Shown here in pieces: positions 12,137 through 13,191 of a stretch of 64,000 bases of DNA. Source of the DNA: Ptychomitrium polyphyllum (Eukaryota); assembly GCA_973851085.1 (NCBI GenBank), contig OZ316775.1, positions 5,084,001-5,148,000 on the forward strand. Reading direction: 5' to 3'. The notes under the pieces are model-generated. The model worked only from the letters and a program-made list of their open reading frames with translations, was not told the origin of the DNA and searched no databases. Position 1 is the first letter of the stretch; every line of letters starts with the position of its first letter. The translations under genes and the position numbers were made by a program.

Positions 12137-13191
12137 ATGGGCGGTTCTAACCCTGTAGTGCTGGTGGCGCTCTTGACGGCCATCAGCTTGGTGATTACCA
12201 TCTTCAAGTGGCACGACGCCCCAGAGAAGGTCCCCATCTGGTGGGATTTGCATAGTGAGTTGGACTCATTCTTCTTGTAGCCAATCGCGCGCAGCTCCCC
12301 TGTTAGAGAAGTAATTTGGGTTTGGATTTTGTGATGGATCAGCAAGGTGACATGTTCTTCTAGTTCGTTGGTTGTGAGTTTTGCTGTACTTGTGATGCTT
12401 TCAATGATGACAGTTTTTGAGGTGGTTTGTCTGCGTTCTGATTCTTGATTGATACCTAGGCATTTTCTGGTGGTCATGTCGGATTTTCCTGATTCTTTGT
12501 TTTCGGATTGTGCCTGCAGCTCATCCTTGGCTCTGGGCTCCCCGATGGTTCGGGGTGTTCTTTCTGCCAGTGCTGACCTTCCTCGTGCCCTACGCTCTGT
12601 ACCAAATCGTCGTCAACAGCAACTTGGAGAGTCACGGGTGAGTCTTACTCTCTGTGCAGCAATGCACATTTTCTGTACTAGTTTCTCCACTTCCTCGTGA
12701 TGTGGAAAACAACGGTATTTAGCTCATTTGGTGATGATTGTTTTCCTTGCAGGCATGAGTCGAAGCAGTCCATCTTCCACATCGTAGTGCTCCCCGCCAT
12801 TTTCCTCTTCATCACCCAGACGTTCGTCATCCTTCCGGCTGCCGTGAACGAGCTCCACAACTTCCCGGCCCGCACATTCGTGGCCAACGTCGCCTTGTGG
12901 CTGCTCATCTGGTTCGGCCATAACATCAAGCATGTTGAGCCTAACTTGGTGGTCGGCATCGTGAACCCCTGGACGACGAACGCCTCCTGGGATAGCCTGC
13001 ACTCGCAAGCAGGCCTTATCTTCGAAGTCTCCGGCGTATTGCTCTTCATCCTTGCTTTCTTCCTTCCCATCGGCTGGCCTCTCACCCTCGGCCTGGTCGT
13101 GTTGTGGCTGGGCCCATGGATTGTGAGCTACGTTCTGGCCTACTCTACTGCTTCCACTTCCTCGGAACGGGAGCCTCTTGTCAGCGCTTGA
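12137..13191 (+). CDS. SdpI-family (DUF1648 + SdpI) multi-pass membrane protein, 224 aa, 3 exons (12137-12254, 12520-12637, 12753-13191)
   Basis: The GTGAGT donors and TGCAG acceptors are in phase (118+118+439 nt). The protein has ~6 hydrophobic segments, a DUF1648-like stretch WHDAPEKVPIWWDLHTHPWLWAPRWFGVFFLP and an SdpI-like stretch IWFGHNIKHVEPNLVVGIVNPWTTNASWDSLHSQAGLIF. A TATA-like TATATA lies at ~12005. Confidence 0.8.

What the first reader, a model, noticed from the sequence alone, without database searches (positions are those of the whole stretch)
12137..13191. Bacterial SdpI-type toxin-immunity membrane protein domesticated as an intron-containing plant gene
Seen: three in-phase exons give a 224-aa, ~6-TM protein; the ORF track shows only exon 3. 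Its N-terminal part (TM-WHDAPEKVPIWWDLHTHPWLWAPRWFGVFFLP) follows the DUF1648 pattern LPxxxPxHW...xxKWxxFLLP. Its C-terminal part (FGHNIKHVEPNLVVGIVNPWTT.ASWDSLHSQAGLIFEVSG) follows the SdpI pattern GNYxxKxxPNxxxGIRTPWT...WxxxHRxxGxxFxxxG. Knowledge: Bacillus subtilis SdpI gives immunity to the cannibalism peptide SDP and signals by sequestering the SdpR repressor; I know the family from prokaryotes, not as a characterised plant protein. The spliceosomal introns, TATA-like box and plant neighbours argue against contamination. Inference: a horizontally acquired gene that may protect against, or sense, membrane-active microbial peptides. The GIRTPW->GIVNPW and HR->HS changes suggest altered specificity. 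No toxin or repressor partner is visible nearby.
Basis: partly seen in the sequence, partly recalled or inferred. Interest (0 to 1): 0.87.

Follow-up and report, generated by a model that had tools for sequence, protein, structure and literature searches.

The report
Bacterial peptide-immunity gene domesticated in mosses
This predicted three-exon moss gene encodes a full-length relative of the bacterial membrane protein SdpI that mosses, liverworts and a fern share; it likely came from one ancient prokaryote-to-plant transfer and is predicted to sit in the vacuole or endosome membrane, where it would bind membrane-damaging peptides.

Summary
Three exons with GT-AG introns give 224 aa that match a profile of 80 named prokaryotic SdpI homologues end to end (74 bits; best of 500 shuffles 7.4). 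A Physcomitrium orthologue model superposes on bacterial SdpI models (TM 0.85/0.91). Both introns sit at the same codon and phase in Sphagnum-like relatives whose intron-free twin contigs show the junctions; dN/dS is 0.14-0.29.

The gene is not moss-specific. It belongs to a two-branch land-plant family (A: mosses, Riccia, Ceratopteris; B: mosses, Calypogeia) that forms one side of the tree against prokaryotes (100/98). No donor could be named.

The toxin-immunity reading is only partly supported. None of the 80 prokaryote genomes checked has an SdpC toxin over the cut-off, and the quoted residue changes lie on the repressor side. New here: branch A has a conserved dileucine-like C-terminal tail that prokaryotes lack, pointing to vacuole/endosome sorting. 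Databases already label the orthologues DUF1648; I found no paper on the plant family. Function is untested.

The parts
12137..12254 (+). Exon 1: ATG, helix 1, first strand of the motif-1 hairpin (DUF1648 positions 1-27)
   Evidence: 90% identical to the Ceratodon orthologue P0204
12255..12519 (+). Intron 1, 265 nt, phase 1, GT-AG
   Evidence: same codon and phase in L006/L007, junction shown by the intron-free twin L004
12520..12637 (+). Exon 2: rest of the motif-1 hairpin, helix 2, inner loop (DUF1648 positions 34-48)
12638..12752 (+). Intron 2, 115 nt, phase 2 (inside Gly79), GT-AG
   Evidence: same position and phase in L005, L006, L007
12753..13191 (+). Exon 3: helices 3-6, SdpI motif 2, C-terminal tail, TGA. 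Lacks two further introns that relatives carry in this stretch
12916..13011 (+). SdpI motif 2 (residues 134-165) with G134, N143, G147, W152, W158, H162 kept in 92-100% of plant and prokaryotic sequences; basic residues lost
   Evidence: consensus from PMC2910880
13165..13182 (+). Acidic dileucine-like tail E-x-x-x-L-V (residues 217-222) after a Ser/Thr-rich linker; predicted endomembrane sorting signal
   Evidence: plant motif (D/E)X3-5L(L/I) from PMC5383025; V in place of L/I, so not a strict match
11991..12012 (+). Two TATA-like stretches about 125-145 nt upstream of the ATG; not a strict consensus match

Best explanation
The window encodes a six-helix SdpI/DUF1648-family protein of an old land-plant gene family that likely arose from one prokaryote-to-plant transfer, is predicted to be sorted by its C-terminal dileucine-like tail to the vacuole or endosome membrane, and would there bind membrane-inserting peptides with its lumen-facing hairpin and so protect the proton gradient. 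Steps and odds. Shown: gene model, full-length homology, conserved introns, purifying selection, two plant branches (about 0.97). Inferred: a single transfer before the bryophyte/fern split, then duplication into an intron-bearing branch A and an apparently intronless branch B, and loss in seed plants (about 0.75). Inferred: N-in/C-in topology as in bacteria, with the tail read by adaptor complexes (about 0.55). Inferred from SdpI and YfhL: the motif-1 half works as a sink for hydrophobic microbial or self peptides that reach the endomembranes (about 0.35). Inferred: the SdpR-type signalling arm is gone or has a new partner, since the cytosolic motif-2 loop has lost its positive charge.
For: Homology; Atlas structure match of the Physcomitrium orthologue P0107 to bacterial SdpI clusters, TM 0.85/0.91 over 207 residues. 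Real gene: introns 1 and 2 at the same codon and phase in relatives, with two intron-free/genomic twin pairs (L004/L006 at 98.9-100% identity per exon, L002/L005 at 100%); dN/dS 0.14, 0.22, 0.21, 0.29 against 4 of 4 related CDS (dS 0.9-1.6, so rough). Range: named members in Physcomitrium (3 genes), Ceratodon (3), Sphagnum (2 named), Riccia (2), Calypogeia and Ceratopteris; no seed-plant, algal, fungal or animal name among the 30 clusters looked up. One origin: plant sequences form one side of a branch at 94/93 against 28 unnamed presumed prokaryotic proteins, 99 against 80 named ones, 100/98 against 34 of those 80, and 96 without the long branch P0045 (quick tree). Tail: [PS]L[LIV] in the last 14 residues of 19 of 21 branch-A sequences, 0 of 13 branch B, 0 of 45 unnamed presumed prokaryotes, 1 of 80 named prokaryotes, inside helix 6; residues 219-221 are 71% identical pairwise against 21% in the linker before them. 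Dileucine motifs send plant membrane proteins to the tonoplast (PMC5383025 passages). [quoted passage not shown] The hairpin is among the best-kept parts of branch A (59%). Motif-2 loop net charge: +2.9 in 80 prokaryotes, -0.7 in 13 branch A, -2.3 in 10 branch B.
Against: No localisation, expression or binding data exist for this gene in my calls. The strict [DE]xxxL[LI] pattern is met by only 3 of 21 branch-A tails and the loose one by 9 of 21; the window has L-V; Ceratopteris and one Riccia paralogue lack the pair; the 21 include fragments and near-copies. The positive-inside rule does not back the bacterial topology in the moss protein: the hairpin loop has 3 K/R, each inner loop 1; an inverted protein would put the tail in the lumen. 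The donor is unresolved (AU p 0.246), the trees are unrooted, and the prokaryote sample came from 11 of 64 parts of the collection and was picked by a fixed motif. The eukaryote range is not settled: the profile search missed 4 of its own 11 query sequences, and P0045 and several fragments are unnamed. The family is mostly toxin-free, SdpI is specific to SDP and does not protect against the paralogous YIT toxin, and TrpP of Corynebacterium, a half-length member, has no SdpC/SdpR and affects growth and tryptophan/Fe-S metabolism (PMC11995493 passages and title). Low copy number and purifying selection are not the pattern of an arms-race defence gene (own knowledge).
Confidence: 0.35

Rival explanations
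1. Same origin and probably the same endomembrane location, but a housekeeping job: the invariant G/N/G/W/W/H core of motif 2 handles a small ligand, metal or lipid, or the protein helps membrane-protein quality control, and peptide binding is a Bacillus special case.
For: N143, W158 and H162 are at 92-100% in plants, archaea and CPR bacteria although most lack both partners. ArsR gene in only 14 of 80 loci, 5 of them seeds of the profile; SdpC over cut-off in 0 of 80 genomes. An SPFH/band-7 gene is the picked upstream ORF in 13 of 76 loci, all in one Anaerolineae-centred clade, so about one event. TrpP phenotype. Purifying selection and low copy number.
Against: No transporter, enzyme or channel fold match stands out (Foldseek best E 0.48; best VIA Z 8.6 to a designed helical protein). 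The two full-length members with a tested role, SdpI and YfhL, both give SDP resistance. Apparent loss in seed plants shows that it is dispensable there.
Confidence: 0.3
2. One reading: a cell-surface immunity protein or sensor for bacterial toxins of the SDP type, with specificity shifted by the motif-2 changes.
For: Both SdpI motifs are present; the plasma membrane is the usual destination when a dileucine motif is missing or broken, and the window's motif is not a strict match.
Against: The quoted changes are on the cytoplasmic side and one is at a variable column (R in 35% of prokaryotes). The conserved tail points inward. No sign of fast change in the outer hairpin.
Confidence: 0.15
3. 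Not a lateral transfer into plants but an older inheritance: from the plastid or mitochondrial endosymbiont, or from early eukaryotes, with wide losses.
For: The plant group is on a long stem with no prokaryotic sister; archaea hold the family (30 of the 80 best loci) and plants plus that subfamily is not rejected; the unnamed eukaryote-like P0045 keeps bacterial features and may come from outside land plants.
Against: No cyanobacterium or alphaproteobacterium among the 80 best named loci (partial scan). No transit peptide: helix 1 starts at residue 6. No named alga, fungus, animal or protist. All sampled archaeal sequences lie in a 100/99 subfamily that excludes the plants.
Confidence: 0.17
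4. Contamination, a chance ORF or a dead pseudogene.
For: No reads were laid on this window; Pfam scores of the separate exons are below cut-off.
Against: 91% identity to a Ceratodon chromosome gene, conserved intron positions, open frame, dN/dS well below 1, plant neighbours.
Confidence: 0.01

Closest known systems
Bacillus subtilis SdpI (SdpC-SdpI-SdpR system; Pfam PF13630 + PF07853)
   Same: Six helices, motif 1 between helices 1-2 and motif 2 between helices 4-5, same length class, predicted fold shared with bacterial SdpI clusters.
   Different: Spliceosomal introns; no sdpR operon or ArsR gene in the window; motif-2 basic residues lost; His of the motif-1 HW replaced by Trp in 12 of 12 branch-A sequences; added C-terminal dileucine-like tail; no known ligand.
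B. subtilis YfhL (sigma-W-dependent SdpI paralogue)
   Same: A member outside the sdpRI operon that still gives SDP resistance (PMC2910880 introduction): the closest functional model for a repressor-free sink.
   Different: Bacterial plasma membrane, sigma-W control; not compared by sequence here.
Corynebacterium glutamicum TrpP (Cgl1)
   Same: SdpI-family member in a genome without SdpC or SdpR; shows that the family has other roles.
   Different: Only three helices (motif-2 half); the moss protein has both halves.
Database entries 'DUF1648 domain-containing protein' of Physcomitrium (XP_024386879, XP_024394989), Ceratodon (KC19_1G182300, KC19_9G039000), Sphagnum, Riccia, Ceratopteris
   Same: Direct orthologues and paralogues; Ceratodon KC19_1G182300 is 91% identical.
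   Different: Automatic labels only; I found no study of origin, location or function. The window gene lacks introns 3 and 4 seen in L005-L007.
Plant tonoplast proteins with dileucine signals (DMP1.1, INT1, ESL1, TPC1, MOT2, VIT1)
   Same: Cytosolic acidic-x-LL-type terminal motif (PMC5383025).
   Different: Unrelated folds; the moss motif ends L-V and is untested.

Membership tests
SdpI/YfhL family (sequence family) | Motif 1 / DUF1648 (PF07853) between helices 1 and 2 | tested here: met
   Exons 1 and 2 match profile positions 1-27 and 34-48; full-length relative P0002 32.4 bits over the 28.7 cut-off, 6 of 12 members of A1 match.
SdpI/YfhL family (sequence family) | PF13630 score over Pfam's curated cut-off | tested here: inconclusive
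   Window 18.5 bits, cut-off 28.2; 12 of 12 members of A1 match at E up to 1, best 2.2e-7. Below the formal threshold, but the motif itself is present (next row).
SdpI/YfhL family (sequence family) | Motif 2 core between helices 4 and 5 (G..PN...GI..PWT...W...H) | tested here: met
   G134, N143, G147, I148, P151, W152, T153, W158, H162 align with the 80-sequence prokaryotic set and with the consensus of PMC2910880; R and T of GIRT are replaced.
SdpI/YfhL family (sequence family) | Six-helix architecture and fold | tested here: met
   Six helices plus hairpin, pLDDT 87.9; TM 0.85/0.91 to a bacterial SdpI cluster (predicted models on both sides). No solved structure of the family found.
SdpI/YfhL family (sequence family) | Motif 1 outside, motif 2 inside | tested here: inconclusive
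   K/R counts do not favour it: hairpin 3, inner loops 1 each.
SdpC-SdpI-SdpR immunity system | Adjacent ArsR-type autorepressor gene | tested here: not met
   An ArsR profile that finds 14 of 80 prokaryotic loci finds nothing in the six frames of the window; the rest of the genome is not held.
SdpC-SdpI-SdpR immunity system | Cognate SdpC toxin operon nearby | tested here: inconclusive
   No such Pfam family among 41 of the 70 longest window ORFs scanned; the SdpC model itself was run only on prokaryotic genomes.
SdpC-SdpI-SdpR immunity system | Binds SDP and confers immunity | not testable with these tools
Prokaryote-to-plant horizontally transferred gene | Nested in a prokaryotic clade with support | tested here: inconclusive
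   Plant group is one clade side but has no resolved sister; AU p 0.246.
Prokaryote-to-plant horizontally transferred gene | Absent from other eukaryotes | tested here: inconclusive
   Only land-plant names seen, but many hits are unnamed and the profile search was incomplete.
Prokaryote-to-plant horizontally transferred gene | Integrated in the host genome (introns, host neighbours, selection) | tested here: met
Dileucine-sorted tonoplast/endosomal proteins | (D/E)X3-5L(L/I) in a cytosolic terminus | tested here: inconclusive
   Window has ExxxLV; strict 3 of 21, loose 9 of 21, [PS]L[LIV] 19 of 21.

The most novel reading that the evidence does not exclude
Early land plants took one prokaryotic peptide-immunity gene and rebuilt it into a two-branch endomembrane system: branch A at the tonoplast through a dileucine tail, branch B cycling through a tyrosine-type tail, together a sink or sensor for membrane-active microbial peptides that seedless plants keep and seed plants lost. 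It would be the first eukaryotic SdpI system and an unrecognised layer of plant defence.
Probability: 0.2. Interest if true: 0.85.

Novelty: new variant of a known kind. Interest (0 to 1): 0.56.

Why it matters
SdpI is described as a prokaryotic family with one well-studied member, and most members have no toxin or repressor partner, so its basic biochemistry is open. A version kept under purifying selection across mosses, liverworts and a fern, with three copies in the knock-out model Physcomitrium, gives a direct way to ask what the conserved core does without SdpC and SdpR. If it is a peptide sink, it is a bacterial self-protection protein turned into plant defence at the vacuole. If not, it still shows in detail how a transferred membrane protein was domesticated: intron gain and loss, loss of the basic cytosolic loop, and two different eukaryotic sorting tails.

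Tried and rejected
RNA evidence for this window: no sequencing runs were obtained, so its own splicing and induction remain open. No whole genome is held, so copy number and a branch-B gene in this species are unknown; tblastn with 6 queries finds no second copy inside the window. Complex prediction with the mature SDP peptide was not available: no verdict. Fold searches gave nothing clear: Foldseek PDB no hit at E 0.001, VIA wide best Z 8.6, sequence search of solved structures best E 0.86. NCBIfam: no useful family. Plant-pattern scan of prokaryotic genomes: 21 pattern matches, 0 relatives; viral contigs: 4 matches, 0 relatives; P0045 in metagenomes: 124 matches, 0 relatives; P0045 protein search found only itself and one branch-B protein among 1739 candidates. 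The profile-profile comparison is not used, because alignment A4 itself contains a plant sequence. P0020 and P0054 (repeat-translation hits) and all fragments were left out of the trees; searches used 34 of the 80 named prokaryotes and 12 plant-like rows; one search finished only as a quick tree. The upstream-ORF survey picks the longest ORF and undercounts short regulators, so the ArsR count comes; two of its 76 picks were SdpI genes themselves; downstream ORFs were listed but not scanned. Earlier scan notes: nothing. Rejected: 'HR to HS shows altered specificity' (variable column, wrong face); plastid targeting (no N-terminal extension); an N-glycosylation reading of the N-A-S in motif 2 (not conserved). 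Literature: no plant SdpI study in searches (listings only), nor in term searches of PMC3493653 (main text and supplement) and of the supplements of PMC11906373 (one scanned PDF not searchable), PMC7027989, PMC12448838 and PMC9630106. The large HGT family list of Ma et al. 2022, Molecular Plant (recalled, not seen) may hold this family.

Full report
Observation. The sequence shows an ATG at 12137 and three exons, 12137-12254, 12520-12637 and 12753-13191, separated by GTGAGT...TGCAG introns of 265 and 115 nt; together they give 224 aa and a TGA. Exon 1 and exon 2 match consecutive parts of DUF1648 and exon 3 matches SdpI, each below Pfam's cut-off on its own. The spliced protein scores 74 bits over residues 8-207 against a profile of 80 named prokaryotic homologues, while the best of 500 shuffles scores 7.4. 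An AlphaFold2 model of the 87% identical relative P0002 has six helices and a beta-hairpin between helices 1 and 2 (pLDDT 87.9), and the Atlas model of the Physcomitrium orthologue superposes on bacterial SdpI models at TM 0.85/0.91.

It is a real, old plant gene. The closest named protein is Ceratodon KC19_1G182300 at 91% identity, and the neighbours are plant-type genes. Of 15 metagenome loci fetched, two pairs are intron-free and genomic versions of the same gene: L004/L006 and L002/L005. They place intron 1 (phase 1, L006) and intron 2 (phase 2, both pairs) at the same codons as in the window, and show two more introns in the exon-3 region that the window gene lacks. dN/dS between the window and four related coding sequences is 0.14-0.29 (synonymous sites are near saturation). 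I have no reads for the window itself.

The family has two plant branches. Branch A, with the window gene, has named members in Physcomitrium (2), Ceratodon (2), Sphagnum, Riccia (2) and the fern Ceratopteris. Branch B has named members in Physcomitrium, Ceratodon, Sphagnum and the liverwort Calypogeia; it keeps the R of the GIR motif and ends in a conserved tyrosine-rich tail (a Yxx-hydrophobic pattern in 9 of 13). Branch B appears intronless, because full-length ORFs were called on genomic contigs of 44-125 kb (inference). One unnamed protein, P0045, is sister to branch B (98/89), keeps the basic bacterial loop (net +4) and ends in P-L-L. No seed-plant, algal, fungal or animal name appeared among the 30 clusters looked up, but many hits are unnamed and the profile search missed 4 of its own 11 query sequences, so the range is bounded only loosely.

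Origin. A, B and P0045 form one side of a branch against prokaryotic sequences in four trees: 94/93, 99, 100/98 and, without P0045, 96. That fits one entry into the plant lineage before mosses, liverworts and ferns split, followed by duplication. No donor can be named. The 80 best named loci are a mix of 49 bacteria, 30 archaea and 1 unassigned, with no cyanobacterium (11 of 64 parts of the collection scanned, fixed motif). All sampled archaea lie in a 100/99 subfamily without the plants, but forcing plants to join that subfamily is not rejected (p 0.246). Lateral transfer is the simplest reading (about 0.75), not a shown one.

What the prokaryotic family does. Povolotsky et al. (PMC2910880; I read part 1 of 8 and passages) place motif 1 outside and assign it to toxin binding, and motif 2 inside for SdpR; the text has no mention of eukaryotes, and only 6 of 17 genomes they examined had sdpI in an operon. 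In my sample an ArsR gene lies in 14 of 80 loci, an SPFH gene is the upstream ORF in 13 of 76, all in one clade, and 0 of 80 genomes have SdpC over the cut-off, 1 below it (B. subtilis control positive; many genomes incomplete). TrpP of Corynebacterium has neither partner (PMC11995493 passages). So 'cannibalism immunity' is a special case of a wider membrane-stress family, though SdpI and YfhL both protect against SDP, which collapses the proton motive force (PMC6818787 passages).

What changed in plants. The core G134, N143, G147, W152, W158 and H162 is kept at 92-100% in all groups (the GIRTPWTL columns of the prokaryotic set are fixed by the search pattern, N143, W158 and H162 are not). The motif-2 loop lost its positive charge: mean net +2.9 in 80 prokaryotes, -0.7 in 13 branch-A and -2.3 in 10 branch-B sequences. 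The outer hairpin is among the best-kept parts of branch A (59% pairwise identity), with no sign of an arms race. Branch A also gained a tail: a variable Ser/Thr-rich linker (21%) followed by a conserved acidic-P-L-hydrophobic motif (71% over residues 219-221), seen as [PS]L[LIV] in 19 of 21 branch-A tails and in none of the prokaryotic tails proper. Plant dileucine motifs of the form (D/E)X3-5L(L/I) direct membrane proteins to the tonoplast (PMC5383025 passages). The match is imperfect: strict pattern 3 of 21, loose 9 of 21, and the window ends L-V. Loop charges also do not confirm the bacterial topology.

Mechanism. I commit to this: the protein is inserted N-in/C-in, its tail is read by adaptor complexes and sends it to the vacuole or endosome membrane, and the lumen-facing hairpin half binds hydrophobic membrane-inserting peptides and so protects the proton gradient, as YfhL and SdpI do in Bacillus but without a repressor (0.35). 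A housekeeping role of the invariant core is nearly as likely (0.3). Only the gene, its homology, its age and its selection are shown; location, ligand and function are inferred. A complex prediction with SDP could not be run.

Novelty. The orthologues are already in databases under the automatic label DUF1648, so the gene is not new. I found no paper that treats the plant family, its origin, its two branches or its tails (searches; supplements 78, 87-90), but the library lacks many subscription papers, and the HGT list of Ma et al. 2022 (recalled, not seen) may include it. It is a member of the SdpI sequence family, not of the SdpC-SdpI-SdpR system. Verdict: new variant of a known kind, interest 0.56.

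Noticed in passing
window 13234-13329 and 13412-13504: Imperfect direct repeat in the likely 3' UTR, two copies 175-178 nt apart, 78-85% identical.
   Followed up: partly
window 11551-11608: Two tandem 29-nt copies, 79% identical, about 530 nt upstream of the ATG.
   Followed up: no
window 50935-55186, minus strand: Ty3/gypsy-type retrotransposon with RT, RNase H, integrase and chromodomain, broken by in-frame stops.
   Followed up: no
window 9443-10462, plus strand: Single-ORF ABC ATPase directly upstream of the gene, with a long N-terminal extension that may be a transit peptide.
   Followed up: no
window 18279-19843 (-), 23811-24227 (-), 33781-35525 (-), 39429-42964 (+), 60489-60983 (-): Seipin, F-box (FBO_C), VLRF1+ankyrin, OSCA/ERD4-type channel and expansin-like (DPBB_1) exons.
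   Followed up: no
window 60988-62703 (-) / 61260-62222 (+): Long overlapping ORFs (571 and 320 aa) with only repeat-like weak Pfam matches; possibly a repetitive cell-wall protein.
   Followed up: no
L003:1649-2323 and 2537-2760: A branch-A gene without any intron on a 4-kb contig, followed by a degenerate duplicate of its 3' end; its cluster has full-length ORFs on contigs up to 8.7 kb, suggesting a retrocopy.
   Followed up: partly
L005:980-1145: Intron 3 of a moss relative has a GC-AG boundary, confirmed by the intron-free twin L002.
   Followed up: yes
L010-L015: A second, more divergent five-exon branch-A paralogue (42-67% to Sphagnum P0072) in peat-moss-like contigs.
   Followed up: partly
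L026, L031, L040, L043, L048, L050, L056, L062, L064, L079, L081, L088, L093: In an Anaerolineae-centred clade the sdpI homologue follows an SPFH/band-7 gene instead of an ArsR gene.
   Followed up: partly
L054:1762-2466 and L077:2321-3007: L054 has two sdpI-family genes in tandem behind an ArsR gene; L077 may be similar.
   Followed up: no
protein P0045 (unnamed, 241 aa): Eukaryote-like member with a bacterial-type basic motif 2 and a P-L-L tail, sister to branch B; its taxon would date the transfer.
   Followed up: partly
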